IMG/VR virus record: IMGVR_UViG_3300031521_000016
Location: 35,895 to 99,894 of that record
Strand: one strand, 5' to 3'
Length of the DNA stretch: 64,000 nucleotides
Origin: a virus
Taxonomy: Duplodnaviria > Heunggongvirae > Uroviricota > Caudoviricetes
The notes beneath the pieces were generated by a model, which saw only the letters and a program-made list of their open reading frames with translations, made no database searches and was not told the origin of the DNA. The position numbers were made by a program, and so were the translations under genes. Positions 7,715 through 55,246 of the stretch are shown here, in pieces; position 1 is the first letter of the stretch, and each line of letters opens with the position of its first letter.

Positions 7715-9340
7715 TTATTTCTCTGTTATTGTTGCATATATTGCAGTACCAAAAGGTACATCAAAAGAAGGATTATTGATTACTAACCAAATAAATTTAG
7801 AAGACATTTTCGATAATTCAGGTACCAAATCTTTGTTCATAGCATGCTCATCACCGTCAGTAATAAATACACCCATTTCCATTTTGCCTGATTTCCATTC
7901 TTCTAACATCTTCATTAGAGGAAGATCGTAGTTTGTTCCACCACCCGGTTCTAATCTAAAGTCAAATACAGGAGGTTGATTCAACATATCGTCATGGTAG
8001 ATTGAGTGATCAAATAGAATCAAGTGAGTCTTTTTGATTTTCTTAGCCATGATAATACCATTAACTTCACCTAGAACATGTTTAAGTCTATCATGTCCCA
8101 TAGAACCTGATGTATCAACAGCAATCATTGCTTTACCTAAGTGTTTAGGTACACCTTTCTTTCTGTCATAAACATAAAGTCCACGTGAGATATGTTTTCT
8201 TTTACCGAGAAATTCTTTTTCTTCAGATGCTATTCTACCTACGAATCTACGTAATTCAGATTTCCAGTCTATTAAAGGACGTGTCAATCTTGCTACACCT
8301 TTTGCTAATAGATTTTTTTCACCAGACATAGTTACTCTAGTTGATACTGCTCTTACTTGATCGGTTAATTTTTGTACAGTTTCATTATTTGGAATATCTA
8401 CTCCTACTCCTAATTCTCTCTGTATCTGTCTACTCAATTCAACAGTTATAGTTCCACCTATACCTTGATCTTCATAACCGTCTCCTTCGATTCGTTTAGT
8501 TTTACGTTCACCATCAGATCCGGTCTTTGAACCGCCTTTCTGTTCCTTTTCGGGTTTTCCAGCTTCTTTTCCGTCTTTATCTTCACCCGATTTTCCAGAT
8601 TTTCCGTCCTTTCCATCTTCACTGTCTTCTCCGTCACCACTTTCTCCGTCACCTTCACCATCTTCCTTATCGTCATCTTCTTCACCATCATATCCATCTG
8701 AATCATTGTCGTCGTCATCATCAGATTCTCCAGGATCTTGGTCGTCATCTCCAGAGTTCATATCTCCCCAACCCGGAGGTGGCGGTGGTTGTTTGTCAGT
8801 CTTTAAAAGCTTATAGATTTCTTCAGCTGCAAGTCCTACATATTCGTCTTTGTATAACCCTTTTAAACTATTTACTAATTGGTCCTTTGTTAATAAACCT
8901 TCATCAACTAGCATAGGATTTATTTCGTGGTCAGCTGCAACATTCCATTTACGTGGTTTTGCGCTAATATTCTGTCTTCTTACAAAATGTAGCATTACAT
9001 TATGTAAAATTTCATGACATAGTACAAATACAATTTCTTGTAAGCTTAGTTTTTCTGTCCAAGTTGGATTTATAAAGATATTGGCACCGTCTGTTGCCAT
9101 AGTTTTTACATGCTTACTGTTTCCAGGGACATATAAAATTCTAAATGAGTATACAAATTCACCAAAGAATGGATATCTACCGGTGATCATAGTAAGAGCT
9201 TTTAATACTCTATTTTTCACCTGATCCAAAGCAGGATCGTCCTGAGAGGAGTTACCCTCTAGGACTGCCTGATTTGATTTCCATGCTGAAAATCTATTAA
9301 AATCCTCAAAAAGAAGTGTTCTAGTTAATTCTTTTCTCAT
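7715..9340 (-). CDS. VWA-domain protein with N-terminal HExxH metallopeptidase-like domain and poly-acidic linker (CobT/DUF2201-like partner of MoxR)
   Basis: HEILH zinc motif, a D/E-rich linker of more than 100 aa, and the VWA MIDAS-like motif VDTSGSM. Confidence 0.7.
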   Translation of the reverse strand: MRKELTRTLLFEDFNRFSAWKSNQAVLEGNSSQDDPALDQVKNRVLKALTMITGRYPFFGEFVYSFRILYVPGNSKHVKTMATDGANIFINPTWTEKLSLQEIVFVLCHEILHNVMLHFVRRQNISAKPRKWNVAADHEINPMLVDEGLLTKDQLVNSLKGLYKDEYVGLAAEEIYKLLKTDKQPPPPPGWGDMNSGDDDQDPGESDDDDDNDSDGYDGEEDDDKEDGEGDGESGDGEDSEDGKDGKSGKSGEDKDGKEAGKPEKEQKGGSKTGSDGERKTKRIEGDGYEDQGIGGTITVELSRQIQRELGVGVDIPNNETVQKLTDQVRAVSTRVTMSGEKNLLAKGVARLTRPLIDWKSELRRFVGRIASEEKEFLGKRKHISRGLYVYDRKKGVPKHLGKAMIAVDTSGSMGHDRLKHVLGEVNGIIMAKKIKKTHLILFDHSIYHDDMLNQPPVFDFRLEPGGGTNYDLPLMKMLEEWKSGKMEMGVFITDGDEHAMNKDLVPELSKMSSKFIWLVINNPSFDVPFGTAIYATITEK

Positions 9341-9354
9341 TTCAATTTATTTCA

Positions 9355-10920
9355 TTAATCTTCATCATTGAAGACATTAGGATATGCATCTATAAGATCT
9401 GCTTTACATACATCTACCCAGTGATCGTCTTTTCTTAAAGCTGGGAAGATTCCTTGAATCATATTCATAGCTTTAACTGAGTTAGGAGCATCTTTAGTTT
9501 TCAATAACCATTGAATAAAGTTGTCTTGTTCTTTTTCAGTTAAAGAATCTTTATCTCTCACATAGTAGCAAACTGCTGATATAAGAGCATGAACTTCATC
9601 TTGTTTAAGTTTACTCCAAGAAGGTGCTTTAGCAGGATTTGTCCATACAAATTTAATATCTTCTGGATTAAATTTATCCATAAGCTTCACGAAACCGGCG
9701 TATGCATTAGCAGCTGCTGGTCCTACAGTAGCTCTAAGAATTGTAAGCTGAACTTTATCAGATACTGATCCTTCAGTTTTTGCAATTTGTTTGATTTTCT
9801 TAGAAGCCATTTCCCATGATCTAGGAGAAGGCCAAGGAGATGACCCAACAGAACCTTCGAATTCATCTAAGTCAAGTAAGTGGAAATATTCTTTGTTCCA
9901 TTTCAAGAATGCTACCATTCTAGGATCAATTAATAATTCACCGGCATCATTTTGTGCTGTTTTAGCCCATGTTTCCCATTCTTCAAGAGTAGGAGCAAAA
10001 TTGACTTGAATTACACGGTTTGATAGGGCAGTATCCCAGTGGAATAATTCCTTTTTAGCATCGATAAGGTCACTACGTCTATTAGCTAGAGCTATAATAA
10101 CCCATTTTGAACCCAATTTATAATCACCGATTTTACGTTCTCTCATAAGTTTTAGACAAACGTCTTGAACTCTTTCATCACATCTAGCGATCTCATCGAG
10201 AAGCAAAATACCTCCTTTTTCACCATTTACTGTCTTTTCTAGTTCTGGTTTTGATAGAGGATATACAGGAAGCATACCGTGTGGCAAAGAAATGTATTCA
10301 ATATCTTCTTTACTATTTCCTACTGTAGCAGGTAAACTGAAATCTTCAGGTCCCATGTTCATTAATGGAAAGTCAAGAATTCTTCTTTGTTTTTCTGCAT
10401 CTACTCCATAAAATTCTTGTGCTAAGGCATAGATAAGAGCAGTTTTACCGATACCTGGAGCTCCCCACATTAGAATTGGATCAGCTTCACCACCAGTTCT
10501 AATAGCTGAACGTAATAGGATTCCCAATGTTTCTCCATCAACATTTTCAATTTTGTCTGTTACCGGAAGCTTTAAATCTATCACATTTTTTTCATCTAGA
10601 GCTGTAACACTTTCGTAAAGAAATGCATTTCTTTTTCCGTTACCACCAGAAAATTCTGTTGGTTTAGATGGCATAGGTGGTATAGAAATAGCTAACCCAA
10701 GTGCTTTAGCTTCTTCGATATCAGCTTTTGTAGGATAGATTACTAATCCTTTAGGTTTTTTAGCCGATTTAACGAAATTGAAAAACCAAGAACCCGATCC
10801 TTTGAAAAAATTACCTACTTTTTCAATAGCATTTTTTATTGTGTCCTTAACTCCTTCGTTTGTGAACTGTGACGAGTCGTAATTTTCGTTGACAAAATCG
10901 TCAAACTTTTTAAATCTCAT
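9355..10920 (-). CDS. MoxR-like AAA+ ATPase (CobS-like)
   Basis: Walker A GAPGIGKT and Walker B LLLDEIARCDERVQDVCLKLM, typical of MoxR/CobS. Confidence 0.75.
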   Translation of the reverse strand: MRFKKFDDFVNENYDSSQFTNEGVKDTIKNAIEKVGNFFKGSGSWFFNFVKSAKKPKGLVIYPTKADIEEAKALGLAISIPPMPSKPTEFSGGNGKRNAFLYESVTALDEKNVIDLKLPVTDKIENVDGETLGILLRSAIRTGGEADPILMWGAPGIGKTALIYALAQEFYGVDAEKQRRILDFPLMNMGPEDFSLPATVGNSKEDIEYISLPHGMLPVYPLSKPELEKTVNGEKGGILLLDEIARCDERVQDVCLKLMRERKIGDYKLGSKWVIIALANRRSDLIDAKKELFHWDTALSNRVIQVNFAPTLEEWETWAKTAQNDAGELLIDPRMVAFLKWNKEYFHLLDLDEFEGSVGSSPWPSPRSWEMASKKIKQIAKTEGSVSDKVQLTILRATVGPAAANAYAGFVKLMDKFNPEDIKFVWTNPAKAPSWSKLKQDEVHALISAVCYYVRDKDSLTEKEQDNFIQWLLKTKDAPNSVKAMNMIQGIFPALRKDDHWVDVCKADLIDAYPNVFNDED

Positions 10921-10964
10921 AAAGTATGTTATTTTTTATTTTGGTATATATTCAGTGGTGCACG

Positions 10965-11000
10965 TAAAAAATAAAAAGGGAGGAGCTTTAAAGCTCCTCC
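10965..11000 (-). terminator. rho-independent terminator (stem GGAGGAGCTTT/AAAGCTCCTCC plus T-run)
   Basis: 11-bp perfect stem; on the minus strand it is followed by TTTTTATTTTTT. Confidence 0.6.
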
Positions 11001-11004
11001 TATC

Positions 11005-11208
11005 TTATTTCTTTTTCTTTTTGTCCTTCACCTTTTCTTTGGGAAGTTCTTCTGTACCACCTATTTCTTCTATAATAGGATTACGTACTTTAGTTTTCCA
11101 TTCCGATTTTGGACAGAAAATCCATCTTGATGTTTCAACTTTAATGTAAGCTTCTGCATCTTTAACTCTCTCAATTCTTTGTGTCGATATCTCCTTTACT
11201 GTTTTCAT
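11005..11208 (-). CDS. hypothetical small basic protein
   Basis: Track ORF followed by a strong hairpin terminator. Confidence 0.4.
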   Translation of the reverse strand: MKTVKEISTQRIERVKDAEAYIKVETSRWIFCPKSEWKTKVRNPIIEEIGGTEELPKEKVKDKKKKK

Positions 11209-11827
11209 CTGGTACTATTGTTTTTCGTTTACGTTTTTTAGCTTTCTTTAAATTCTCTGGTGATAGAAGAGGGGCTCCAATGACTTCATCAATAATATTG
11301 AACTCAGCAGCTGTCACAGGATCCATGTACCAATCAGACTTTGTCCTTTTGTATACTTCCAAATCTTTTTTCGTTAATTTTGTACGTGAAAAGAGTATGT
11401 TTTCACATACTTTAGTCAATCTTTCTCCTTCTTCTATGGATAGTTTTAATCCTTCTAATGAATCCTGCACTCCCATTGCTATTTCATGATACATGATAGT
11501 AGATAAATGGTGAGCTCGTCTCATATGTCCTGATGCTAGGATAAATAGCCCCATGCTCATAGCAGAGCCTAGACATGTTACACATACCGGTGTAGCAGAT
11601 AGTTCTATGGCGCCAATTAAAGCTAGTCCGTCATATACACTTCCACCATACGTATTTAAAAGTATGTGGATAGATGGCCGCTGATATCCATTATAGCTCA
11701 TCTCTTTTTCTTCATCATCTAAGTTAATCTCATAGATTGCCTTTATAATGTCTTCTACTGATAAAGATGTAATAGTTTTACCGAGTATAAAGATTCTTTC
11801 TTTTGGTTTAAAGTCTAGTGTGGCCAA
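11171..11827 (-). CDS. ClpP-family serine protease
   Basis: INTYGGSVYDGLALIGAIE...CLGSAMSMG matches the ClpP GxSxG serine motif, and a His lies downstream. Confidence 0.7.
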   Translation of the reverse strand: MATLDFKPKERIFILGKTITSLSVEDIIKAIYEINLDDEEKEMSYNGYQRPSIHILLNTYGGSVYDGLALIGAIELSATPVCVTCLGSAMSMGLFILASGHMRRAHHLSTIMYHEIAMGVQDSLEGLKLSIEEGERLTKVCENILFSRTKLTKKDLEVYKRTKSDWYMDPVTAAEFNIIDEVIGAPLLSPENLKKAKKRKRKTIVPDENSKGDIDTKN

Positions 11828-11846
11828 GTTTTTTAATTTTGATAGT

Positions 11847-12071
11847 TTATAAAATTTTTCGTATAATAAAAGTCATACTTGCCGATATCAATATTGCGAT
11901 AGGCACATATATGATTGATAATATTATACTAAGTGTTGTTTTAAAAGATGTTGCTAGGTATAAATTCTGTAAATCTACAGACTTACAGAGTGCTGTAATT
12001 AATGTTCGTTCTAAAATAGAAAATAGAATGAAGATAATAAGGAAAATCAGAATAGTTAATATTTTTTTCAT
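11847..12071 (-). CDS. small membrane protein
   Basis: Two hydrophobic helices. Chosen over the overlapping plus-strand ORF because of strand consistency. Confidence 0.4.
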   Translation of the reverse strand: MKKILTILIFLIIFILFSILERTLITALCKSVDLQNLYLATSFKTTLSIILSIIYVPIAILISASMTFIIRKIL

Positions 12072-12352
12072 TTGAAAGATATATTTTTTGAATCATGGGC
12101 GGCTTTCATGAAAATCTTTATAGCTTTTTCGTATGGAAGAAACTCTTCATTTTTCGTAAATTCAGTGATTCCAATATTTTTGCTTCTACATTCTTTCCAT
12201 GTCATACGATATTGTACTTCTAATCTCGAATATGCTTTTGCAGATTTTGTTTTTCTAAACTTTGTCACGATTACAGATCTGCTTTGAAATTCAAAAACTT
12301 TATCATTTATATCTATTGACAATATGGTTGAGTAATTATTCGTGGTTTTCAT
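12068..12352 (-). CDS. hypothetical protein
   Basis: The track ORF extends to 12412, into a palindrome. The internal ATG at 12352 (MKTTNNY) is the more plausible start. Confidence 0.4.
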   Translation of the reverse strand: MKTTNNYSTILSIDINDKVFEFQSRSVIVTKFRKTKSAKAYSRLEVQYRMTWKECRSKNIGITEFTKNEEFLPYEKAIKIFMKAAHDSKNISFK

Positions 12353-12400
12353 ATTGTTTTTAGAGTATTGTGTACAAAGTTCTTTATCTAGTTTACACAC

Positions 12401-12430
12401 AAATAACGACAAAACGTTTTGTCGTTATTT
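12401..12430. terminator. 30-nt perfect palindrome AAATAACGACAAAACG|CGTTTTGTCGTTATTT, possible bidirectional terminator
   Basis: Perfect inverted repeat flanked by T-runs on both strands. Confidence 0.45.
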
Positions 12431-12440
12431 GTTTTTTATT

Positions 12441-12899
12441 TTACGATAATAGATGGAATATGTCAGTATCAGTTTTTACTGTGTCAATATATGTACGCGG
12501 AGTCCGTGGTGTATTATAATCATAGCCGATTGGAGAAAGCATATATTTATATTCGATATTTTTATACAGAATCTTAACGTATAAGCTTGAATTGTTATAA
12601 TTCCAGACTTCGATTGAACATTTCACATCACGTGTGTCTTTACATGAAAATTTAAAGACTTTACAGTCTTTATTAGTTTGAACCTCTACAGAATCATAAG
12701 TATAGCTCTGTAAAAATCTAGAAAAAATGAAGATTTTTTTGTCTTCATAATTGAACATTAAATCGAGATTTGAATCTTCCCAATCTGACCATTTTTGTTC
12801 CGGAACTCTTACACTAAATGCTTCTGATTTATACCATACTTTATTTTGTGCTGTTAAAAAGATAGGGATAAAAAGTAAAATTGTTAGAATTTTTCTCAT
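12441..12899 (-). CDS. secreted protein
   Basis: Signal peptide MRKILTILLFIPIFLTAQ. Confidence 0.5.
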   Translation of the reverse strand: MRKILTILLFIPIFLTAQNKVWYKSEAFSVRVPEQKWSDWEDSNLDLMFNYEDKKIFIFSRFLQSYTYDSVEVQTNKDCKVFKFSCKDTRDVKCSIEVWNYNNSSLYVKILYKNIEYKYMLSPIGYDYNTPRTPRTYIDTVKTDTDIFHLLS

Positions 12900-12903
12900 G
12901 TCT

Positions 12904-13401
12904 TTATTTTTCTAATTGTTCTTCGATATAATTTGCAATTATGATAACATCTTCATCTCGCAGCGGCCAAAATTCTTTACCATTTACTTCTACTGCAAAG
13001 TCACCATCTGTTGGATCGATATGAACATTTGTTAATGTATTTACAGGATTATGTTTTGATGCAGAATAATCATCGATGCTTTTCAATAATCGACTATATG
13101 ACGAATCATCACTTTCTCTTGTAGACGGTTCATGCTTGAAGAATGAAATGACATCTTCATTCGTGTCGACCAAATCAATAGAAAGATCACTCCAGTCAGT
13201 TACTTTTTCCCAGTTTTCTACGATGAATATTTTGGCACATATTGCTATGAACTCCATATGTGCAAGATGATCATTGTATGATTCTAAAAAGTTAAAATCT
13301 ACATGTGAATGTGAAGCTTTAATGTGCTTAGACATATCTTCTAATGAAGAAAAACACGGTCTTACTATATGGCCATGTATTAACAATCCATTTCTGTTCA
13401 T
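12904..13401 (-). CDS. hypothetical protein
   Basis: Track ORF. Confidence 0.5.
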   Translation of the reverse strand: MNRNGLLIHGHIVRPCFSSLEDMSKHIKASHSHVDFNFLESYNDHLAHMEFIAICAKIFIVENWEKVTDWSDLSIDLVDTNEDVISFFKHEPSTRESDDSSYSRLLKSIDDYSASKHNPVNTLTNVHIDPTDGDFAVEVNGKEFWPLRDEDVIIIANYIEEQLEK

Positions 13402-14084
13402 TTGTACTTAGTTAGTTTTTCGTCCAGAATTTTTACACCTTCTGTTGCAGTTTGTTGAATAAAGATTCTGTTTCTTTCTCTTACAGGTTCATTGTTCGGA
13501 TCAATAATATAGATTGGAATATCGTCGTATACCAAATCCACTAATCCAGCTGCTGGATATACTTGTAATGATGTTCCAATGACTACTACGATATCTGCTC
13601 GTTCGATAAGTTCGGCTGCTTCGTCCATATTCGGTACACTTTCACCGAACCAAACAATATGTGGTCTTAATGCTGATCCATCGGCTGCTATAGAGCTAGT
13701 TTCGATTTTGAAATCGGCTGGCCAATCTACTATCTTTTTATCACCACATGATTTCATTTTAGTTAACTCACCATGTAAATGTAATACTTTCGTAGAACCG
13801 GCTCTTTCATGTAAATCGTCCACATTTTGTGTTATGATTTGTACATCAAATTCTTTTTCAAGATCTGCCAGATATTTATGGGCAGCATTAGGTTCGACAG
13901 TAGATAATTGTGCTCTTCGTTTATTATAGAATTCTAACATTTGAGCTCGATTCTTTTGCCAGCCAGTTACAGTAGCAACATCTGAAATGTTATATTCTTC
14001 CCATAGACCGTCAGAATCTCGAAAAGTTTTTATTCCACTTTCGGCGCTTATACCAGCACCAGTAAATACGATAAGTTTTTTCAT
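13398..14084 (-). CDS. Sir2-family NAD-dependent deacylase (sirtuin)
   Basis: GAGISAESGIKTFRD, QNVDDLHERAG and HGEL match the sirtuin Rossmann/NAD-binding motifs. Confidence 0.8.
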   Translation of the reverse strand: MKKLIVFTGAGISAESGIKTFRDSDGLWEEYNISDVATVTGWQKNRAQMLEFYNKRRAQLSTVEPNAAHKYLADLEKEFDVQIITQNVDDLHERAGSTKVLHLHGELTKMKSCGDKKIVDWPADFKIETSSIAADGSALRPHIVWFGESVPNMDEAAELIERADIVVVIGTSLQVYPAAGLVDLVYDDIPIYIIDPNNEPVRERNRIFIQQTATEGVKILDEKLTKYK

Positions 14085-14103
14085 TTGTTTTTATTTATGA
14101 TAC

Positions 14104-14113
14104 AAAAATAACA
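14104..14113 (-). promoter_or_regulatory. TGTTATTTTT variant
   Basis: 20 nt upstream of the Sir2 start; TATTTTTG also fits a TAnnTTTG-type -7 box. Confidence 0.3.
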
Positions 14114-14119
14114 CAATTT

Positions 14120-14407
14120 TCATTTAGTGGGAAACGCTAGTTCTTTCTTATGTCTCATATCTTTCTTAGGCTCATACCCAATATAAATAAAATTACCTGA
14201 ATAGAACTGTCTATTCTCATATATTACGTATGAGAACTTATGTTCTCCATGGCATATGAGATTGAATTCAGTATCAGTAACTCTATCTCTATTGAAAGAT
14301 GACATACTACAATTACGCATAGAATCTGGATATACTGATGTTATCTCATATTTCCCATCGAATGTAAAAATATGTCCATGCAAATCTTCTACTTTAGATT
14401 TGAACAT
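14120..14407 (-). CDS. hypothetical protein
   Basis: Track ORF. Confidence 0.45.
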   Translation of the reverse strand: MFKSKVEDLHGHIFTFDGKYEITSVYPDSMRNCSMSSFNRDRVTDTEFNLICHGEHKFSYVIYENRQFYSGNFIYIGYEPKKDMRHKKELAFPTK

Positions 14408-14886
14408 TATGCTAATCTGAATTTTCGCGTAAAGTTACGCAGAAATAAGATTTTTTCCAATTCTTCTTCAGAATCTACATTGAACTGTTTTACCCATTCT
14501 TTATAGGGTTCATCTTCAGTGATATAGTCTGTTTCGACAAAATCAGGATAAGCTTCTTTATCCCATACTCTTTCATCTGCTAACCACACGATACCGGTCA
14601 TTTGATTACCCAAGTCAGGCTCATGGAATACAGCATGTTTTATATTTGCAGCTTCTAAAGCATACGCATGCATATTCATAGTTCCCTTAGAAGCAATAGA
14701 ATCATTAGTAGTACCACCATTTAAGATAATAAATGTTTTATCTACATATGCCCATTTGATGCAATCATCCTGTGGCAAAAAAATGTTCATGTATTCTACA
14801 ACAGCATGTCCAAATTGTATTCCTTTTTGTATTCCACTCAATTGATAAGGTACTAGCCCCATCATTCTATATGTGTATTTTTTCAT
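14407..14886 (-). CDS. hypothetical protein (weak PTH2-like peptidyl-tRNA hydrolase resemblance)
   Basis: GIQKGIQFGHAVV...TFIILNG...GNQMTGIVW is loosely similar to the PTH2 core; weak support. Confidence 0.4.
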   Translation of the reverse strand: MKKYTYRMMGLVPYQLSGIQKGIQFGHAVVEYMNIFLPQDDCIKWAYVDKTFIILNGGTTNDSIASKGTMNMHAYALEAANIKHAVFHEPDLGNQMTGIVWLADERVWDKEAYPDFVETDYITEDEPYKEWVKQFNVDSEEELEKILFLRNFTRKFRLA

Positions 14887-15266
14887 AAAAATATTGTTGT
14901 TTGTATTAATTCATTTAAGTCATGTTTATCTTCTATGACATCTACTTTTTTAGTTTGCTCAAGAACATCGACAACTTCTTGTTCACTGATTACTTCATGA
15001 TACTCACCACTAAACGGTATAGATTCATCTAAAACATATTCATATTCATTTTTTAGATGTTTGAATAATGGTACTCTTTTATGTGTAGTTTCACAGTATG
15101 GACATTCATCATCTATTAATGAGATAATGAGAGAGTCTTTTTTGTAGTAAATCTTCATTTGAACATTACGAATATCGGCTAATAATTCCTTTTCGTGTAA
15201 TTCAAATCCTATACATGTCAATAATAAGCTAGTAACTTTATCGTCAAGATTAAGATTCAGGATCAT
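14883..15266 (-). CDS. hypothetical protein
   Basis: Track ORF. Confidence 0.45.
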   Translation of the reverse strand: MILNLNLDDKVTSLLLTCIGFELHEKELLADIRNVQMKIYYKKDSLIISLIDDECPYCETTHKRVPLFKHLKNEYEYVLDESIPFSGEYHEVISEQEVVDVLEQTKKVDVIEDKHDLNELIQTTIFL

Positions 15267-15795
15267 ATTCGATAAAGGGCTCTGAGTTTGTTATTATCTG
15301 TTTGTATCTATTAAATTCGCACATGGTCAAGTGTATGTTTTCACCACCTCCATAGTTCATACTGTGAACATAGTGTGCTGGAATATCGAGATCATGTTTT
15401 ACACAAAAATCTCTTAACCATTCTGCACATGCTTTACCAGTCTTTTCGACAAATTCTCCATCTGGATCTGCTCCATAATGTTCAAAACTTAAATCGTGGT
15501 CAAAAGAAATCAGCCAAAGAAACTTTTTCTGTTCGAAGAGTTCTGTTATCTTTTGTACAAATTCTGTATACGATCTTACTATTACCCAGTCTGTTTCAGA
15601 ATAGATAACTTTATTCATCGGCATATGCGGCATGTGATAATACATACACTCTCTAGGATGCCGCATATCGTCCAGAAACAATTTATATACTAAGATATCT
15701 CTTTCCATAATAGTTGTAAAGTTTCTTTTTCTGATTCCCAAACTTCTCGAGGTAATCCTGCTCTTGTTCCCTTTTCGAATATTACGCCTGGACAT
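15250..15795 (-). CDS. hypothetical protein
   Basis: Track ORF. Confidence 0.45.
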   Translation of the reverse strand: MSRRNIRKGNKSRITSRSLGIRKRNFTTIMERDILVYKLFLDDMRHPRECMYYHMPHMPMNKVIYSETDWVIVRSYTEFVQKITELFEQKKFLWLISFDHDLSFEHYGADPDGEFVEKTGKACAEWLRDFCVKHDLDIPAHYVHSMNYGGGENIHLTMCEFNRYKQIITNSEPFIEYDPES

Positions 15796-15849
15796 ATTTC
15801 ATACGTCTCTTCGATGTATTCTAGTTCTACCCAATCGGTACGTGGTACT

Positions 15850-16338
15850 TTATTGTCGTTTTCCATCTTCAATGATCAAATAGTTTAGAACAGCTGTCCA
15901 ATCGGGAAATTCTCCTGAACCGAAATGAATATGTTCACCAGTAAAGTCTAATACACCATTAGCATCCCTATCATCAATGATATAGTCTCCTTTTAGCAAG
16001 CCTTTATTATGTGAAAGAATAAGTTTTTTCTTTGCATCGATACCGAATAATACTTCTACACTCTTTCGTTTTTCTCCCCACGCGTCTGGATTACTCCAAG
16101 GTGGTGTACTTAAAATGTAAACTTCATATTTTTCTTGTAAAGCTTTAAATGCTTCTTGTGCACCTTCAATCGGTTCAAGATTCTTATATGCTTCAGGATG
16201 TTGAAATAGCTTATGTTGTTTGATACCTAGTGATGCTAATTCACCTACTCTCTTATCGAAGTCTACTAACACACCATCCATATCGATGTATACAATAGGT
16301 TTGTCAATTTGAATATGTGATCTTAAATAACTACTCAT
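15850..16338 (-). CDS. 5'(3')-deoxyribonucleotidase, HAD family (NT5C-like)
   Basis: HAD motif I VYIDMDGVLVDF and downstream GDYIIDDR. Confidence 0.75.
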   Translation of the reverse strand: MSSYLRSHIQIDKPIVYIDMDGVLVDFDKRVGELASLGIKQHKLFQHPEAYKNLEPIEGAQEAFKALQEKYEVYILSTPPWSNPDAWGEKRKSVEVLFGIDAKKKLILSHNKGLLKGDYIIDDRDANGVLDFTGEHIHFGSGEFPDWTAVLNYLIIEDGKRQ

Positions 16339-16342
16339 TCCT

Positions 16343-16588
16343 TTAGAATATTTTTATTAAAGATTTACGAGCTGATTCTATCATGACAATAGCATCATAC
16401 AGATCTTTGTCAGGATTCATCTCGTAAATTTTATTTGAATTGATAACTAGTTCCTCGCAGAACTTATTCAGTTGTTTCTTTAGCAGAGCACGATCTTCTG
16501 CCGATAATTTTTCTTTTTCTTCTGTTATAGAAACTGATTTCTTACTCCAGTTTGCACTCCACGTAATGTTGTTAGGGGTCTGTCTCAT
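16343..16588 (-). CDS. hypothetical protein
   Basis: Track ORF. Confidence 0.4.
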   Translation of the reverse strand: MRQTPNNITWSANWSKKSVSITEEKEKLSAEDRALLKKQLNKFCEELVINSNKIYEMNPDKDLYDAIVMIESARKSLIKIF

Positions 16589-17784
16589 TTTAAAAATTTA
16601 AAGTCGCAACGTCTATTTGGTCTATATTTAATTTTTGGATCGTTTAGTTTTCCTCTTCCGTCAGTCTGAATTCTTGATCCGTCGATTTTCCAGACTTTTA
16701 CCATTTCTTTCTTGGTACGTTCTACTCTTTCATCGCTTAACTTAAAATTGTATGGAATATCACCCATATAATCACAGTAACCGACTATTTGAAGTTTCAG
16801 CTTTGGATTATCTTGCATTTTCTTAGCTACTTTACAAATAGTAATCAATGCCCAATCATCTAACTCATATTTATCGAAGTCAAAATAGATGCTTGGAATT
16901 TCATTATCTGTTAAGTTAATAGTATCTACATTATGTTTTCCGTCTAGATTATTATTTCTATTCAGAATATAGGCTGATAATGAGTCGATCTTATTGTCTT
17001 GTGAAATATTTTTCTTTTTTAGTGATTTTATTTCTTTGTTTAGATCATTTATATCAGATTGTAGATTTCTATCTTTCTTCGGATACTTAACCGGTGAAAA
17101 TTTATACGATATGCCTAATGTCGCTAAACCAACTTTATCATTAGTTACTCCTTTGTATGTCCAGATACCTTCTAAATTATCTTTATTGAAACATATATAG
17201 CTCATTTTAGCTAGAATGTCGATATGTTTAGAATAATTATACTTTAAATATACAGAAATAGGTAATGTTACTGCTAATCCATATTTTTCTGTTACTGGGA
17301 AAGTAGGCATAATTCCGGGTGATGGAGACTTAATATGTAACATATCGTCTGCTGTAAGTCCCGGAGTCAAATCGTATGAGTAAAATGAATATCCTAATCC
17401 TACTGAACCATTTACTGTAAGTTTAGATAGTGAGTACGGTAAAATTAAATGCGTAATATCTATTGTAAGGTTTAAACCACCTGTCCAGATATCACTGCCT
17501 ATGTTTCGAGTAACCCCATTTAATCCGGTGTTAGCATTAATAGGTATATAATAACCGTTAGCACTTATTCCCCAAATATGATTAATCTTATATTCGAGAT
17601 TTAATCCGGCTGTTACTCCCCACACCGAACTTGGGAAAATATTCTTGAGAGACTGATTAATGTCTCCATCGAATCTGTTTAGACCAACTTCTGGTGTAAC
17701 AGACCACTTTGAGTAAGTGGGATAATTGTATGCATTACTATTCAATGACAGTAAACATACTAGAAATAGTATTAATTTTTTCAT
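16585..17784 (-). CDS. OmpA-family outer-membrane protein
   Basis: Signal peptide, a beta-rich N-terminal half, a coiled-coil linker, and a C-terminal OmpA peptidoglycan-binding domain (IYFDFDKYEL...LQIVGYCDYMGD...N..LSDERVE). Confidence 0.7.
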   Translation of the reverse strand: MKKLILFLVCLLSLNSNAYNYPTYSKWSVTPEVGLNRFDGDINQSLKNIFPSSVWGVTAGLNLEYKINHIWGISANGYYIPINANTGLNGVTRNIGSDIWTGGLNLTIDITHLILPYSLSKLTVNGSVGLGYSFYSYDLTPGLTADDMLHIKSPSPGIMPTFPVTEKYGLAVTLPISVYLKYNYSKHIDILAKMSYICFNKDNLEGIWTYKGVTNDKVGLATLGISYKFSPVKYPKKDRNLQSDINDLNKEIKSLKKKNISQDNKIDSLSAYILNRNNNLDGKHNVDTINLTDNEIPSIYFDFDKYELDDWALITICKVAKKMQDNPKLKLQIVGYCDYMGDIPYNFKLSDERVERTKKEMVKVWKIDGSRIQTDGRGKLNDPKIKYRPNRRCDFKFLK

Positions 17785-18479
17785 GATACAGTTTTATGTG
17801 AATAAAATTTATAGATGACATATGCATATATTAAGACTGTTAAGAATATAGGAGCATCTCCTACTGGTACACTATTTGGACATTCTACATATACATGTTC
17901 CCATTCCCAATATTCAATCCATCTATTTTGACACCAGTCATAATATACCTTTTTAACTTTAACGTTATATCCACAATCTGAATAGCATCTTTGTAACACA
18001 GATGCATTACCTATTGATGTCTTATTTGCATCTTCACTATTAAGAACTGAAGCATCTGCAGTAGGTGCTAGTTGACTACTAGATGTAGAAGTAGTATTTT
18101 TAGATCCGAATGAATTAAAGAATATTGGTTGTACAGATTGTGGTTGAATACTGGTTTCAGTCTTTACATTCATAGAAGAATTATATGTCATTGCTCCATT
18201 ACTTACTGAATTTACTGGAGTAGCATTAAATGCTTCATATTTATTTTCAGTAGGTGTCATCTGAATGCTATTAAAATCTTCATTATTATCAGACTCAGCT
18301 GAATAACTATTCATTTTTGGTGCATTAGGGATCGTAGTCTTGAAATTAGAATCAAAATTACTTTTCGTTACACTAGTATAGAAAAATGACTCATGATTCT
18401 CTGTGAGTTGAGTTACTGTTAATGATAATACGCTTATCAATGTAATAACTAGAGCGATAATGAATAGATTTTTTTTCAT
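17781..18479 (-). CDS. S/T/N-rich membrane protein with Cys-rich C-terminus
   Basis: TM segments at the N- and C-termini flank a low-complexity middle. Confidence 0.45.
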   Translation of the reverse strand: MKKNLFIIALVITLISVLSLTVTQLTENHESFFYTSVTKSNFDSNFKTTIPNAPKMNSYSAESDNNEDFNSIQMTPTENKYEAFNATPVNSVSNGAMTYNSSMNVKTETSIQPQSVQPIFFNSFGSKNTTSTSSSQLAPTADASVLNSEDANKTSIGNASVLQRCYSDCGYNVKVKKVYYDWCQNRWIEYWEWEHVYVECPNSVPVGDAPIFLTVLIYAYVIYKFYSHKTVS

Positions 18480-20103: not shown

Positions 20104-20940
20104 TTATTGCAAGTATACTGTCAATATATCGTCGAAGAACTCTTTGTTCTGTGTAAAGATCGGCGTTTCAACAGCTTCCCATTTATTTCGTCTTGCTCCA
20201 TTCTTTAGATACTCAACCTTTTTAATGATTGCTCCTCGCTTCCTGCGGTAATCATACTCATTCCAATTGATACCTTTTTCAAAGATCATATCTTGCATTA
20301 CATCTGTTTTCTTACCGTGTAGTTCTTTTGGGCTGTATAAGCTTTGAGCTACAGAAGAAATAGAATTGCGAGTGGCATCTTGCTGTCTCCAAATGAAATA
20401 ATTTATAACTTCCTGTCTAGCTGGAATAGTGAATACTCTAGCATCAAATTCAGCTAATTTTTTGAAGCATCCCATGATGTCATCATGTGTCTGAAAAACA
20501 AGATTTTCAAATTTTGACAGAGCACGTTTGATTCGCAATTCATTAAACTTATTAGTTGCCATAGAAGCTGATACACTTACAATCTTTTGGATATTATTAT
20601 CGTACCATGCATCGGTTGTTACATCATCGAAATCAGTAATTAATACTGAGATTTCATCAGATTGGACGTAAGCACATTTAGCACCTTGGATATTTTTACA
20701 CAGATATGCTGCAGTAAGATTCATATCTTCAATTAATCCATCATCAAATGGACGTTGCAACCCTTTCGTGTAAGTATGAAATGCTTTTCCATCGATTCTG
20801 ATTACTGCATATGTACGTCTGGGTAGATACATTCGAGTTCTGTTCTCGTAGAACTCTTTCATCCTGTTCCCTAAATCATCTTTTTTATTTTCCACGGTCG
20901 GTGTAATATTTAATGTATAATGCTTGTTGTCTGATGCCAA
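20104..20940 (-). CDS. Thg1-like tRNA 5'-guanylyltransferase (TLP)
   Basis: FYENRTRMYLPRRTYAVIRIDGKAFHTY...RPFDDGLIEDMN...CAYVQSDEISVLITDF matches the Thg1 catalytic core (RxDG, PFD, SDEIS). The start may be the internal M27. Confidence 0.75.
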   Translation of the reverse strand: MASDNKHYTLNITPTVENKKDDLGNRMKEFYENRTRMYLPRRTYAVIRIDGKAFHTYTKGLQRPFDDGLIEDMNLTAAYLCKNIQGAKCAYVQSDEISVLITDFDDVTTDAWYDNNIQKIVSVSASMATNKFNELRIKRALSKFENLVFQTHDDIMGCFKKLAEFDARVFTIPARQEVINYFIWRQQDATRNSISSVAQSLYSPKELHGKKTDVMQDMIFEKGINWNEYDYRRKRGAIIKKVEYLKNGARRNKWEAVETPIFTQNKEFFDDILTVYLQ

Positions 20941-21137: not shown

Positions 21138-21572
21138 TTAATCTTTTATGAATTTGCCGTGTAATGTACGGTATATAAGTTCTTTGACATATAGTCTATT
21201 AGCTGTACTTTTCCATTTAATGCCTCTTTTCCAATTGTACGATATGCAGTTAATCAACCAAGAATTTGACATTTCAGATATTGGAACCCATTTTAATGGT
21301 TCGTCACCATTCTTGCCTCTACCTCCTCTGCAAACATATTTTCGTATTTCTTTAAATGTGCTATCTGAATAGATAGAGACATCTTTCATTGGTGCTTCTG
21401 GATAATCTGACATTCTTCTGTATGAATTACCACCGTCTAACATGTATCGTTTACCATTAGCATCGTCATGTGTAACATAATGATGTGTATGTAAGGACGT
21501 AAGTATTGTACCATCAGGGGTTTGCATTCTGCAAACTAACATTTTTCTTTCTTTCATATTCAAATATAACAC
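21138..21572 (-). CDS. hypothetical protein
   Basis: Track ORF. Confidence 0.45.
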   Translation of the reverse strand: MLYLNMKERKMLVCRMQTPDGTILTSLHTHHYVTHDDANGKRYMLDGGNSYRRMSDYPEAPMKDVSIYSDSTFKEIRKYVCRGGRGKNGDEPLKWVPISEMSNSWLINCISYNWKRGIKWKSTANRLYVKELIYRTLHGKFIKD

Positions 21573-22006: not shown

Positions 22007-23263
22007 TTAGTTGCTAATTTCTATAATATAGCGGATAGTAGCTTGCGATATATCGTAAATGATGTATTCATTGTTTCGTAAGTCTGCTCCACCCTCAGCG
22101 AATACAGAATCGAAACCATCAGCTGCAAGATTCTTTTTATTTAGCCCGTAATTAGAACGTGTTACATGTTTCTGATTTCCTACGTGAAAGTCAAATAATG
22201 CCAAGAAAGCAGTAGCAGCAGAACCTCTCGCCCAGTATGAACCGGATAATGATGTATAGCCGATAGACTTTTGTGCTTTATCAGCTCCATAGATACCGTC
22301 TCCGAACATAGAACCAGAATATACTGCTCCAGATGGTCTAATCAAAAGCCCTGTCTGTAAAATGTTAAGCCAGTTTTCATTTCTAGAACCATGCCAGAAT
22401 GTTTGTATCTTTTTATTTTTAGCTGAATCTACTTGTTTAATGAAGCGTTCTTCTGTTTGTATATTTTTTACACCGAATGCTCTAACGAATTGTTTAGCAT
22501 TTGGCCCCATAAGCGATTTGATTTTTTGAACTTCTGCATCTGTAATTTCTACCATTTCAAGACCAAGCATCTTTAATGTATCAACTTTTTCATCTGCATC
22601 ATCTTCTTCTCCACCATTTTCTGCAAGTTTTTGTTTCTTCAACATTTCAACTTGTCCTGCCATAGTATCTAAAAGTTTTTGTTCTTTGTCCATCATGTCG
22701 AACAGAGTTTTGTTTTTTGTATCTTTTAGATCGAAGTCTTTGGGTAAAAGATGATAACTTACATGCTTCATCTTTCTAGGTATAATCGAATACAGCTCTA
22801 AGAATAAGTTGTTGATATCATTAACCGTAAGAGTGGATAATCCGGCAGATATCGTATTAATGATGCCTTGTGCTGCATCAACTTGTTGTTGTGTAACGTC
22901 AGATTGAGAAATCGTGTAGTTTTCTTCTACCGTCTTTTTAGCAAAAGCTTGTAGTCTGTCGAAGAATAACTTAATCTTAGCATTAGCAATCTGAGTAATC
23001 GTTTTCTTCTTGCCGGTTTTAACATCAGTAGCAGTGGCTCCAATAGATTCGATGAATAGTGTGGTTACATCTTTATAACCTTTTTTCGTTTTCGCTCGAT
23101 ATGTCTTTTCCCATTCTCTAATCGGATAAGTTTTTTCAGCTGGTTTACCTCCTTGTACTCTACCATATACGACTGTGAATGTTCCATTTTCATTATCAGT
23201 CATATGATAAAATTTGTTGTTATTTTCACTGGTCACCATGACCAATTTTACTACTTTCCCCAT
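22007..23263 (-). CDS. PARP-like ADP-ribosyltransferase with N-terminal WGR domain
   Basis: WGR-like N-terminus (NNKFYHM...VVYGRVQGG...KGYKDV). Catalytic domain FWHGSRNENWLNILQTGL...GDGIYGADKAQKSIGY...NNEYIIYDISQATIRYIIE aligns with the PARP1 H-G-S / Y-Y / E triad. Confidence 0.8.
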   Translation of the reverse strand: MGKVVKLVMVTSENNNKFYHMTDNENGTFTVVYGRVQGGKPAEKTYPIREWEKTYRAKTKKGYKDVTTLFIESIGATATDVKTGKKKTITQIANAKIKLFFDRLQAFAKKTVEENYTISQSDVTQQQVDAAQGIINTISAGLSTLTVNDINNLFLELYSIIPRKMKHVSYHLLPKDFDLKDTKNKTLFDMMDKEQKLLDTMAGQVEMLKKQKLAENGGEEDDADEKVDTLKMLGLEMVEITDAEVQKIKSLMGPNAKQFVRAFGVKNIQTEERFIKQVDSAKNKKIQTFWHGSRNENWLNILQTGLLIRPSGAVYSGSMFGDGIYGADKAQKSIGYTSLSGSYWARGSAATAFLALFDFHVGNQKHVTRSNYGLNKKNLAADGFDSVFAEGGADLRNNEYIIYDISQATIRYIIEISN

Positions 23264-54928: not shown

Positions 54929-55246
54929 TTATGTTATTTTAATCCAGCCTTCTCCGCCTGGACCACATTCATTTTCTATAGTTATCTTTATCAGTTTTTG
55001 ATTCTCATAACCTCCAGCTCTTATAGCTATTGGCATAAATTCTTTTTCTAACATCTCTTCATCGAAGGGATGACTATCTCCTAAGCATACAAATACATGA
55101 TTCTCTTTCTCGTTAAGATATACATCACCGTATTCACCATTGCAAAGAATTGCAATGGCATACGCATAATGTTGAAGTTTAGCAAAATCGATAGGTCCCG
55201 GATATTTAACGTCTTCGTTAAATTCTTTGTATTTCTTTATTCTCAT
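54929..55246 (-). CDS. hypothetical protein
   Basis: Track ORF. Confidence 0.45.
   Translation of the reverse strand: MRIKKYKEFNEDVKYPGPIDFAKLQHYAYAIAILCNGEYGDVYLNEKENHVFVCLGDSHPFDEEMLEKEFMPIAIRAGGYENQKLIKITIENECGPGGEGWIKIT

What the first reader, a model, noticed from the sequence alone, without database searches (positions are those of the whole stretch)
13398..14084. Phage-encoded sirtuin
This is a canonical Sir2 Rossmann core (GAGISAESGIKTFRD, QNVDDLHERAG). Sir2 domains act as deacylases, ADP-ribosyltransferases or NADases, including in anti-phage defence. A virion-side Sir2 could remodel host acylation, or act as a decoy or regulator of NAD+ pools alongside the PARP-like enzyme.
Basis: partly seen in the sequence, partly recalled or inferred. 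Interest (0 to 1): 0.55.

Follow-up and report, generated by a model that had tools for sequence, protein, structure and literature searches.

The report
Phage copy of bacterial CobB sirtuin
A large T4-like phage of Bacteroidota carries an intact, zinc-free copy of the ordinary bacterial CobB sirtuin, an NAD-dependent enzyme that removes acyl groups from protein lysines; phage sirtuins have been known for two decades, so this is a new member of a known kind.

Summary
Window 13398..14084 (minus strand) encodes an intact 228-aa sirtuin: Pfam SIR2 E=7e-45, and the best solved relative is E. coli CobB (E=4e-51). The AlphaFold model matches CobB-peptide complexes at TM 0.86-0.91. The catalytic His (H104), the NAD pocket motifs and the class-III Y53-x-x-R56 pocket are all present. 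All four zinc-ligand cysteines are replaced (S112/S131/A133/A134). That loss is a lineage trait: 0 of 67 parsed Bacteroidota chromosomal homologues, and only 3 of 56 viral ones, keep the tetrad.

The window is a T4-like phage (portal, gp15). The gene groups with Bacteroidota-type CobB (51-64% identity). It lies outside the T5/rV5/KVP40 phage-sirtuin clade (100/100 bootstraps) and matches no defence-Sir2 model.

The most likely function is an NAD-dependent protein lysine deacylase used to reset host protein acylation. Rival readings are RNA 2'-phosphate removal in tRNA repair (cREC, HAD, Thg1-like, CCA-adding and RlaP genes lie nearby) and ADP-ribosylation or NADase activity. Nothing supports the "virion-side" or "decoy" ideas.

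More than 1000 GenBank phage records encode sirtuins, so interest is low to moderate. The oddest item is the translationally coupled ORF165. It is a conserved family with no recognisable fold, and in related phages it sits next to NAMPT.

The parts
13398..14084 (-). Sirtuin gene: a 228-aa class-III (CobB/SIRT5-type) Sir2 with a Zn-free small domain. Key residues are G9-A-G11, F21, R22, Y53, R56, Q86-N87-V88-D89, H104, F146-G147-E148 and G170-T-S172.
14103..14113 (-). Promoter-like motif TGTTATTTTTG, 19 nt upstream of the sirtuin ATG. It is one of 13 coding-strand copies of TGTTATWTTWD that lie just upstream of gene starts. It contains TAnnTTTG, the Bacteroidota -7 consensus (from my own knowledge).
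   Evidence: 15 matches against 3.2 expected, and 0 of 100 shuffles reach 15. One search gives the positions relative to start codons. Function is inferred, not shown.
12904..13401 (-). ORF165. Its ATG overlaps the sirtuin stop codon (ATGA), so translation is probably coupled. It belongs to a conserved uncharacterised family (motifs HNP, LDPTDGDF, IANYIE) with no family or fold match.
12441..12899 (-). ORF152, the third gene of the putative unit. It has an N-terminal signal-peptide-like segment (MRKILTILLFIPIFLTAQ). Its function is unknown.
   Evidence: sequence. One search gives only a sub-threshold Pfam hit. Membership of the same transcript is inferred from spacing only.
12399..12432 (-). 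Perfect 15-bp palindromic hairpin, 8 nt after the ORF152 stop codon. It is a terminator-like end to the sirtuin-ORF165-ORF152 unit.
   Evidence: scan. RNA fold of -20.1 kcal/mol, z=-4.8, and 0 of 200 shuffles fold as well. There is no U-tract on the minus strand, so a terminator function is inferred.

Best explanation
The gene is a phage-borne orthologue of the Bacteroidota-type CobB, a stand-alone class-III sirtuin.

Mechanism, inferred from conserved residues and the established sirtuin mechanism: NAD+ binds the Rossmann pocket (GAGISAESGIKTFR, TQNVD, GTS). The acyl-lysine of a substrate protein enters the tunnel between the Rossmann domain and the small domain (FGE loop, A37, V88, I143). 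The acyl oxygen attacks C1' of the nicotinamide ribose, and H104 acts as the general base. The products are deacylated lysine, nicotinamide and 2'-O-acyl-ADP-ribose. Y53 and R56 should allow succinyl and malonyl groups as well as acetyl, as in CobB and SIRT5. The small domain folds without zinc.

The gene appears to head its own short transcription unit with ORF165 and ORF152. Its likely role in infection is to strip acyl marks from host (or phage) proteins and so reprogramme metabolism or gene expression. The targets are unknown.

Shown here: family, fold, residues, phage location and phylogenetic placement. Inferred: catalytic activity, acyl preference, timing of expression and physiological role.
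For: - Family: full-length SIR2 domain and strong hits to CobB-type deacylase models.
- Similarity to characterised enzymes: 50% identity over 180 aligned residues to E. coli CobB, an experimentally characterised deacetylase, desuccinylase and lipoamidase.
- Pocket residues: all named acyl-pocket and catalytic residues of CobB are identical or conservatively replaced. They are invariant across 20 relatives that share only about 62% identity, which argues for selection on catalysis.
- Fold: the AF2 model (pLDDT 88.6) superposes on CobB-acetyl-peptide complexes at TM 0.86-0.91, small domain included.
- Placement: the gene groups with Bacteroidota CobB (51-64% identity).
- Stability: the identical protein was found on 22 or more metagenome contigs, so it is a stable part of this phage.
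- NAD turnover: relatives in other phages sit beside NAMPT, PRPP synthetase, Nudix and NADAR genes. That fits an enzyme that really turns over NAD+ and releases nicotinamide.
- Not a defence type: it has no fused or adjacent sensor or effector domains and matches no defence-Sir2 model.
Against: - No biochemical data exist for this protein. I also found none for any phage sirtuin in the searchable literature.
- All NCBIfam CobB models score below their curated cut-offs (best 217.8 against 243).
- Loss of the structural zinc site could in principle change stability or specificity.
- The neighbourhood contains RNA-end-processing genes: cREC three genes upstream and a HAD phosphatase five genes upstream. 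The closest relative on L019 sits two genes from an RNA ligase. This is the context in which Iyer et al. 2022 predicted a non-deacylase, KptA-like role.
- Host CobB has been reported to restrict phage growth in E. coli (PMC7927137), so the benefit to a phage is not obvious.
Confidence: 0.65

Rival explanations
1. RNA-repair sirtuin. The enzyme uses NAD+ to remove a 2'-phosphate from broken tRNA or RNA ends, as KptA/Tpt1 does. It would work with cREC (cyclic-phosphate opening), a HAD phosphatase, a PNK-like kinase, a Thg1-like 5'-end repair polymerase, a CCA-adding enzyme and RlaP, to undo host anticodon-nuclease damage.
For: - Iyer et al. 2022 predicted this role for the main viral sirtuin clade, from neighbourhoods containing cREC, 2H, Nudix, RNA ligase, kinase and HAD genes.
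- The window has cREC at 15250..15795 and HAD/NT5C at 15850..16338, within 2.3 kb of the sirtuin.
- Further out it has Thg1-like 20104..20940, PolyA_pol/CCA-like 37131..37895, RlaP 42395..43588 and an AAA_33 kinase at 5572..5976. The kinase is 41% identical to the kinase in the rV5-like Sir2/RNA-ligase cluster.
- The closest relative, L019, has RNA_ligase, HAD_PNKP and AAA_33 around its sirtuin.
- An RNA-ligase cluster lies near the sirtuin in three loci.
- Thg1-like lies within 10 kb of the sirtuin in 11 of 56 dereplicated groups.
Against: - The window sirtuin is not in the phage clade for which the prediction was made; the split has 100/100 bootstrap support.
- It is about 59% identical to housekeeping cellular CobBs and keeps the acyl-lysine pocket, including Y-x-x-R.
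- cREC and HAD lie upstream of the promoter-like motif, probably in another transcription unit, and are separated from the sirtuin by three unrelated small ORFs.
- No RNA ligase was found in the window.
- The Thg1 linkage comes mostly from one syntenic phage lineage.
- The hypothesis itself has never been tested experimentally.
Confidence: 0.13
2. Conflict enzyme. The sirtuin acts as a protein or nucleic-acid ADP-ribosyltransferase, or as an NADase. It would either take over the host, like T4 Alt/Mod, or exclude competing phages. It might work together with the PARP-like enzyme, with NADAR and Nudix clearing the products.
For: - The window is rich in NAD/ADP-ribose genes: a PARP1-like ART with the H-Y-E positions, NADAR, Nudix, cREC and an orphan RES/ParT-type antitoxin domain.
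- Some sirtuins are ADP-ribosyltransferases or NADases.
Against: - No PADLOC defence-Sir2 model matches it.
- There is no macrodomain partner as in SirTM systems, and no HerA, TIR, SLOG or Argonaute partner.
- The sequence is an orthologue of deacylating CobB, with the acyl pocket conserved.
- The PARP gene is 8 kb away and NADAR is 27 kb away.
Confidence: 0.1
3. Two-protein module with ORF165. The translationally coupled ORF165 would be a regulator, adaptor or substrate of the sirtuin, giving it a phage-specific target or controlling its NAD use.
For: - The stop and start codons overlap (ATGA).
- ORF165 is a conserved family with 19 invariant positions.
- In related phages its homologue lies directly after NAMPT, another nicotinamide/NAD enzyme.
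- Its confident model has no known fold match.
Against: - None of the other 55 dereplicated groups of sirtuin loci has an ORF165 homologue next to the sirtuin.
- Two of the four ORF165 contexts sampled show no NAD-related neighbours.
- Overlapping stop and start codons are common throughout this densely packed genome.
Confidence: 0.07
4. Functionally inert passenger: a captured host gene that is decaying or not expressed.
For: None directly. Its only basis is that host-like auxiliary genes are sometimes transient.
Against: - The reading frame is intact, of normal length, with every catalytic residue in place.
- The identical sequence occurs on many contigs from several samples.
- It is no more than 64% identical to any other sequence found, so it is not a recent capture.
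- It has a promoter-like motif of its own.
Confidence: 0.05

Closest known systems
E. coli CobB (PDB 1S5P, 6RXJ), a class-III sirtuin lysine deacetylase, desuccinylase and lipoamidase
   Same: It has the same two-domain fold (TM 0.86-0.91) and 50% identity over 180 residues. The catalytic His, NAD motifs, FGE loop and Y92/R95 acidic-acyl pocket are identical.
   Different: The window protein has no zinc site, because all four Cys are replaced. It lacks the basic N-terminal extension of the long CobB isoform. It is encoded by a phage.
Chromosomal CobB-type deacylases of Bacteroidota (Flavobacterium, Siphonobacter, Emticicia, Prolixibacteraceae and others; NCBIfam NF001753-like)
   Same: They have the same length (about 227-232 aa) and 51-61% identity over the full length. 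They have the same Zn-free small domain: 0 of 67 parsed sequences have three or more Cys there.
   Different: The window gene is carried by a T4-like phage, in an island of auxiliary genes. No cellular genome sampled exceeds 60% identity, so it is not a recent capture. Whether the phage copies form their own clade is unresolved (39/100 bootstraps).
Known phage sirtuins: KVP40/phiSt2 Sir2/CobB, and T5-like, rV5-like and jumbo-phage Sir2 (PHROG 2162)
   Same: They are phage-encoded stand-alone Sir2 proteins that also lack the Cys tetrad. They often lie beside NAD-salvage or RNA-repair genes.
   Different: They share only 30-37% identity, and most (T5-like, rV5-like and jumbo-phage Sir2) align only to residues 1-175, whereas the KVP40-type matches run almost full length (residues 3-227). 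TQNVD is changed to T[TA]NVD, and GTS to GCS or GSS. They form a separate clade (100/100).
Human SIRT5 and Archaeoglobus Sir2Af1 (class III)
   Same: They share the Y-x-x-R pocket and the overall fold.
   Different: Identity is lower (28-38%), and they retain the zinc site.
Defence-associated Sir2 NADases (ThsA, DSR1/2, SIR2-HerA, SIR2-Argonaute)
   Same: They share the Rossmann-type Sir2 NAD-binding core at superfamily level.
   Different: There is no model match, no partner domains or genes, and a different Pfam family. The window protein keeps the acyl-lysine tunnel and the small domain.

Membership tests
Sirtuin (Sir2) family, Pfam PF02146 | Score above the Pfam gathering threshold over the whole domain | tested here: met
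   153.6 bits against a cut-off of 24; profile positions 1-180 of 180.
Sirtuin (Sir2) family | NAD-binding motifs GAGxSxxxGIxxFR, (T)QNxD and GTS | tested here: met
   G9AGISAESGIKTFR22, T85QNVD89 and G170TS172. All are invariant in alignment A1.
Sirtuin (Sir2) family | Catalytic histidine (HG motif) | tested here: met
   H104 aligns to CobB H147.
Sirtuin (Sir2) family | Structural zinc bound by two Cys pairs in the small domain | tested here: not met
   CobB C155/C174/C176/C177 align to S112/S131/A133/A134. The small domain is still predicted with pLDDT 94-96. The same loss is seen in all 67 parsed cellular Bacteroidota homologues.
Sirtuin (Sir2) family | NAD+-dependent deacylase or ADP-ribosyltransferase activity | not testable with these tools
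   This needs an enzyme assay.
Class III sirtuins (CobB/SIRT5 type) | Y-x-x-R pocket for acidic acyl groups | tested here: met
   Y53 and R56 align to CobB Y92 and R95. Both are invariant in A1.
Class III sirtuins (CobB/SIRT5 type) | Closest solved structures and fold are class III | tested here: met
   The top sequence hits are CobB, Sir2Af1 and SIRT5. Foldseek gives TM 0.86-0.91 to CobB.
NCBIfam CobB equivalogs and subfamily (NF001753, NF001755, NF040867 and others) | Score at or above the curated cut-off | tested here: not met
   The best score is 217.8 against a cut-off of 243. All seven models fall below their cut-offs.
Viral 'RNA-repair' sirtuin clade (Iyer et al. 2022) | Membership of the distinct phage sirtuin clade (T5/SP15, V5, Serratia BF type) | tested here: not met
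   The window protein falls in the CobB-like group. The split from T5-like, rV5-like, Yen9-03 and KVP40 sequences has 100/100 bootstrap support.
Viral 'RNA-repair' sirtuin clade (Iyer et al. 2022) | Conserved neighbourhood with cREC, 2H, Nudix, RNA ligase, kinase and HAD genes | tested here: inconclusive
   cREC and HAD lie within 2.3 kb, but behind a separate promoter-like motif. No RNA ligase was found in the window. An RNA ligase sits next to the sirtuin in relative L019.
Defence-associated Sir2 (Thoeris ThsA, DSR1/2, SIR2-HerA, pAgo-SIR2) | Match to defence Sir2 models, plus a partner sensor or effector domain or gene | tested here: not met
   PADLOC gives only a 14-bit sub-threshold hit to an unrelated candidate model. 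There are no HerA, TIR, SLOG or Argonaute neighbours.
SirTM (macrodomain-linked ADP-ribosylating sirtuins) | Adjacent or fused macrodomain | tested here: not met
   No Macro domain appears among the genes scanned or looked up, which cover the sirtuin's neighbourhood (about 3.4-24 kb) and most larger ORFs of the window; a few stretches, such as 57.7-59.2 kb and small ORFs near 36.5-39 kb, were not scanned.

The most novel reading that the evidence does not exclude
The CobB-type sirtuin may not be a simple host-mimicking deacylase. It could be the NAD-consuming step of a phage module. One version pairs it with the fold-orphan ORF165 family, which in sister phages follows NAMPT. The other has it act as a KptA-like RNA 2'-phosphate remover within the phage's tRNA-repair kit (cREC, HAD, Thg1-like, CCA-adding enzyme, RlaP). 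The second version would mean that a housekeeping-type CobB scaffold was recruited independently of the T5/rV5 sirtuin clade into the same kind of neighbourhood.
Probability: 0.12. Interest if true: 0.65.

Novelty: new member of a known kind. Interest (0 to 1): 0.3.

Why it matters
Phage sirtuins are common: 1022 GenBank phage records in this search. Yet I found no biochemical characterisation of one in the searchable literature. Two untested ideas are in print: activation of host acetyl-CoA synthetase, and RNA repair.

This example is about as close to a characterised deacylase as a phage sirtuin gets, with 50% identity to E. coli CobB and an intact pocket. That makes it a convenient test case for asking whether phage sirtuins deacylate proteins at all, and whether a sirtuin small domain works without zinc.

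If it is simply a deacylase, it is an ordinary auxiliary metabolic gene. It also belongs to an unusually dense set of NAD and ADP-ribose genes in one phage: a PARP1-like enzyme, NADAR, Nudix, cREC and an orphan RES-toxin antitoxin domain. These illustrate how much of the phage-host conflict runs through NAD.

Tried and rejected
- Megablast of 10000..18000 against GenBank phages gave no match, so the phage itself is not in that collection.
- A single-sequence scan of IMG/VR found nothing. The alignment-based scan worked.
- NAD-salvage reading of the PfkB (1819..2649) and cytidylyltransferase (2818..3261) genes: rejected. Their best models are the HldE/RfaE heptose kinase and adenylyltransferase.
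- Defence-type Sir2 reading: rejected.
- Recent capture from the host: rejected. No cellular or viral sequence exceeds 64% identity.
- A monophyletic 'Bacteroidota-phage sirtuin clade': not supported (39/100 bootstraps).
- NAD-salvage and Thg1 synteny around CobB-type sirtuins as many independent events: rejected. It is mostly one phage lineage.
- My impression that ORF159 (14407..14886, PHROG 3668 'hydrolase') is PTH2-like could not be confirmed. Pfam gave no hit, and phmmer and hmmsearch against PDB gave no hit. It remains a memory-based lead.
- A literature check for a described Zn-free sirtuin (Sir2La preprint) gave nothing usable.
- Rfam and tRNA scans of the window were empty.
- The sigma-70 promoter scan was uninformative: 38 hits against 28.7 expected.
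Full report
**1. Observation**

The ORF at 13398..14084 on the minus strand runs from an ATG to a stop codon and encodes 228 aa. Several searches confirm the family:
- Pfam SIR2 (PF02146): E=6.8e-45 over the whole profile.
- PHROG 2162 'Sir2 (NAD-dependent deacetylase)': E=1.9e-48.
- Solved structures: E. coli CobB 1S5P at E=4.4e-51, then Archaeoglobus Sir2Af1 and human SIRT5.

All of these structures are class-III sirtuins. Seven NCBIfam CobB-type deacylase models hit strongly, but all fall below their curated cut-offs; the best is 217.8 against 243. The plus-strand ORF inside the gene (13579..13929) is a shadow ORF.

**2. Anatomy of the protein**

I aligned the protein to the long isoform of E. 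coli CobB, taken from MG1655. This gives 50% identity over 180 residues and the following mapping:

| E. coli CobB | Window protein |
|---|---|
| A76 | A37 |
| Y92 | Y53 |
| R95 | R56 |
| Q129-N130-I131-D132 | Q86-N87-V88-D89 |
| H147 | H104 |
| V187 | I143 |
| F190-G191-E192 | F146-G147-E148 |

The catalytic base, the nicotinamide (C) pocket, the peptide-binding FGE loop and the Y-x-x-R pair are therefore all present. In CobB and SIRT5 that pair recognises succinyl and malonyl groups. These residues are invariant in an alignment of 20 relatives that share only about 62% identity.

The four zinc-ligand cysteines of CobB (C155, C174, C176, C177) align to S112, S131, A133 and A134. The only Cys in the protein, C113, is not at a ligand position.

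An AlphaFold2 model built on that alignment has mean pLDDT 88.6 and pTM 0.86, with pLDDT 94-96 across residues 101-140, the former zinc module. Foldseek places it on CobB-acetyl-peptide complexes (6RXM, 6RXJ, 1S5P) at TM 0.86-0.91.

**3. The zinc loss is a lineage trait**

Among the closest cellular homologues from one genome per species, all 80 best hits are Bacteroidota. They include Emticicia, Prolixibacteraceae, Siphonobacter, Flavobacterium, Bacteroidales and Chitinophagaceae, at 51-60% identity. Of the 67 whose small-domain segment could be parsed, 27 have no Cys there, 36 have one, 4 have two and none has three or more. Of 56 dereplicated viral CobB-type sirtuins, only three keep four Cys, and those three cluster with E. 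coli CobB. A Zn-less Sir2/CobB was already noted for KVP40-like vibriophages, with salt bridges proposed as a substitute (PMC5107563).

**4. It is a phage, probably of Bacteroidota**

- The window is about 33% GC, and nearly all genes are on the minus strand.
- It encodes a T4-type portal (55246..56964) and a T4 gp15-like tail-sheath stabiliser (62347..63213).
- The identical sirtuin occurs on 22 or more metagenome contigs with the same gene order.
- A motif, TGTTATWTTWD, occurs 15 times against 3.2 expected, and 0 of 100 shuffles reach that count. Thirteen of the copies are on the coding strand, just upstream of gene starts.
- One copy, 14103..14113, lies 19 nt upstream of the sirtuin ATG. 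The motif contains TAnnTTTG, which I recall as the Bacteroidota -7 promoter consensus. That is my own knowledge, not tested here.
- Downstream, ORF165 (12904..13401) overlaps the sirtuin stop codon (ATGA).
- ORF152 (12441..12899) follows. Eight nucleotides after its stop lies a perfect 15-bp hairpin (-20.1 kcal/mol, z=-4.8).

I infer a three-gene unit bounded by the motif and the hairpin. No transcript data exist to confirm it.

**5. Phylogenetic placement**

The best matches overall reach only 61-64% identity.

Several of these lie in phage-like contexts:
- L019 is a 19.5-kb contig carrying Phage_T4_Y07B, RNA ligase, HAD_PNKP and AAA_33.
- L020 is from a 501-kb contig, and L021 from a 236-kb contig (the same protein also occurs on contigs up to 711 kb). 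Both consist of runs of small unannotated ORFs, and IMG/VR lists the former contig, and close relatives of the latter, as viral.

In neighbour-joining trees the window protein sits in the CobB-like group with these sequences and with cellular Bacteroidota CobB.

The split from the classical phage sirtuins (T5-like OSYSP, rV5-like JES2013, Yersinia jumbo phage fHe-Yen9-03, KVP40) has 100/100 bootstrap support. A clade of 'phage-only' relatives that excludes the cellular genes has only 39/100.

Mean identity is 61% to the phage and metagenome relatives, 59% to cellular Bacteroidota and 33% to the classical phage clade. So the gene is a Bacteroidota-type CobB. It was acquired long ago, independently of the enterobacterial and vibrio phage sirtuins, and the exact donor is unresolved.

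**6. Context**

Within the window:
- cREC_REC at 15250..15795 and an NT5C/HAD phosphatase at 15850..16338, upstream of the sirtuin.
- A Thg1-like enzyme at 20104..20940.
- A PARP1-like ADP-ribosyltransferase at 22007..23263. It aligns to the PARP1 catalytic fragment, helical domain included, with the H-Y-E positions present.
- NADAR at 40490..40927 and Nudix at 50625..51176.
- A CCA-adding/PolyA_pol-like enzyme at 37131..37895, and RlaP at 42395..43588.
- An AAA_33 kinase at 5572..5976, 41% identical to ORF75 in the RNA-ligase/Sir2 cluster of the rV5-like phage JES2013.
- An RnlB-antitoxin-like protein at 53496..53984.
- A 66-aa stand-alone Xre/MbcA/ParS C-terminal antitoxin domain at 3786..3986.

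No NAMPT, NMNAT or PRPP synthetase was found in the window. The PfkB and cytidylyltransferase pair at 1819..3261 is HldE/RfaE-like.

In 56 dereplicated groups of sirtuin loci (mostly IMG/VR, plus the window and a few phage or metagenome contigs), the genes within 10 kb of the sirtuin include:

| Neighbour | Groups (of 56) |
|---|---|
| NAMPT-like | 11 |
| PRPP synthetase | 10 |
| Nudix | 13 |
| NADAR | 11 |
| Thg1-like | 11 |

Most of these groups belong to one syntenic lineage, so they represent few independent associations.

**7. Interpretation**

The weight of evidence favours an active CobB-type NAD+-dependent lysine deacylase (confidence about 0.65). That evidence is orthology to characterised deacylases, the conserved acyl-lysine tunnel, conservation across diverged relatives, the lack of partner domains, and the absence of any defence-Sir2 signature.

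The proposal by Iyer et al. 2022 (PMC9503650) is that phage sirtuins act like KptA in RNA repair. It was made for a different clade. The neighbourhood here resembles it only partly: cREC and HAD are nearby but apparently in another unit, and there is no ligase in the window. However, the closest relative, L019, does have an adjacent RNA ligase. I keep this rival at about 0.13.

An ADP-ribosyltransferase or NADase role, possibly tied to the PARP-like enzyme, gets about 0.10. A specific partnership with ORF165 gets about 0.07. An inert passenger gets about 0.05.

One point remains unexplained: host CobB has been reported to limit phage growth in E. coli (PMC7927137).

**8. ORF165**

In sister phages that share PolyA_pol (62% identity), RlaP (43%) and ORF159 (47%) with the window, the ORF165 homologue lies directly after NAMPT. 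It sits in a cluster with PRPP-transferase, NADAR, 2H and RlaP genes. Two other contexts show no NAD-related neighbours. Its function is unknown.

**9. Novelty and verdict**

Phage sirtuins were annotated in KVP40 in 2003 and are present in 1022 GenBank phage records. PHROGs has a family for them. Their Zn-less small domain and possible roles have been discussed in PMC5107563 and PMC9503650.

This gene is a new member of a known kind. It is distinguished only by being the Bacteroidota CobB type rather than the classical phage type. Interest is low to moderate (0.3). The most novel reading not excluded is a module with ORF165, or an RNA-repair role, at about 0.12 probability.

Noticed in passing
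window 22007..23263 (-): A 418-aa PARP1-like ADP-ribosyltransferase. It aligns to the PARP1 catalytic fragment, including the helical regulatory domain (E=4e-15). The H-Y-E positions are present (WHGSR, GIYGAD, NEYIIYD), so poly-ADP-ribosylation is conceivable.
   Followed up: partly
window 12904..13401 (-); homologues in L102, L103, L104, L105 and L106: The ORF165 family is conserved (19 invariant residues) and has a confident AF2 model, but no sequence-family or fold match. Here it is translationally coupled to the sirtuin. In sister phages it lies directly downstream of NAMPT.
   Followed up: partly
window 3786..3986 (-): A 66-aa stand-alone Xre/MbcA/ParS C-terminal antitoxin domain (NCBIfam NF049845, E=5e-18), with no RES, MbcT or ParT toxin gene beside it. 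It is a candidate phage inhibitor of host NAD-degrading RES-type toxins.
   Followed up: no
window 15250..15795, 15850..16338, 20104..20940, 37131..37895, 42395..43588, 5572..5976 and 53496..53984 (all -): A scattered RNA/tRNA-repair and anti-toxin kit: cREC, an NT5C/HAD phosphatase, a Thg1-like 3'-5' polymerase, a CCA-adding/PolyA_pol-like enzyme, RlaP, an AAA_33 kinase (41% identical to ORF75 in the Sir2/RNA-ligase cluster of rV5-like phage JES2013) and an RnlB-antitoxin-like protein. No RNA ligase was found in the window.
   Followed up: partly
window 40490..40927 (-) and 50625..51176 (-): A NADAR domain protein (Pfam E=1e-27) and a Nudix hydrolase. Together with the PARP-like enzyme and the sirtuin, they give this phage an unusually full NAD/ADP-ribose toolkit.
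   Followed up: partly
window, 13 minus-strand sites: 5991, 14103, 19348, 21561, 25114, 30984, 38504, 39516, 43908, 45874, 52695, 53462 and 54291: The promoter-like motif TGTTATWTTWD occurs 15 times against 3.2 expected. Most copies lie in intergenic gaps, 15-35 nt upstream of start codons (21561 is an exception, at the annotated start of the 21138..21572 ORF), and are often followed by TATAAAA/AATCA. It contains the Bacteroidota-type TAnnTTTG.
   Followed up: partly
window 1819..2649 and 2818..3261 (-): A split HldE/RfaE-like heptose-7-phosphate kinase and heptose-1-phosphate adenylyltransferase. Just beyond the window, contig L009 carries a thymidylate-synthase-like gene, a glycosyltransferase and an epimerase. 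This could be a sugar-nucleotide pathway for DNA or surface modification.
   Followed up: no
window 7715..9340 and 9355..10920 (-); 11171..11827 (-): A MoxR-like AAA ATPase paired with a DUF2201 (VWA-like) protein, followed by a ClpP-family protease that is PHROG-annotated as a head maturation protease.
   Followed up: no
window 31061..32923 (-): A 620-aa Band_7 (SPFH) protein, 63% identical over 575 aa to a gene lying about 10 kb from the sirtuin of the 642-kb uncultured huge phage LR756502.
   Followed up: no
IMG/VR loci such as L043, L055, L061, L084 and L097: In one lineage of large phages the CobB-type sirtuin lies about 1.35 kb upstream of a PRPP synthetase, and near NAMPT, Nudix, NADAR, Thg1-like and a 528-aa metallophosphatase. 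This parallels the reported CobB-Prs crosstalk in E. coli (bioRxiv 10.1101/2020.12.09.417477).
   Followed up: partly
L001 (ENA ERZ27249843 k141_818283): This contig is a perfect inverted duplication of the sirtuin region. The gene order is mirrored around about 11.67 kb, which is almost certainly a hairpin assembly artefact.
   Followed up: no
window 14407..14886 (-): ORF159 matches PHROG 3668 'hydrolase' (E=3e-16). Its homologue (47% identity) lies between RlaP and ClpP in sister phages. The motif GIQFGHAVVEY reminded me of PTH2-type peptidyl-tRNA hydrolases, but no Pfam or PDB sequence match supports that.
   Followed up: partly
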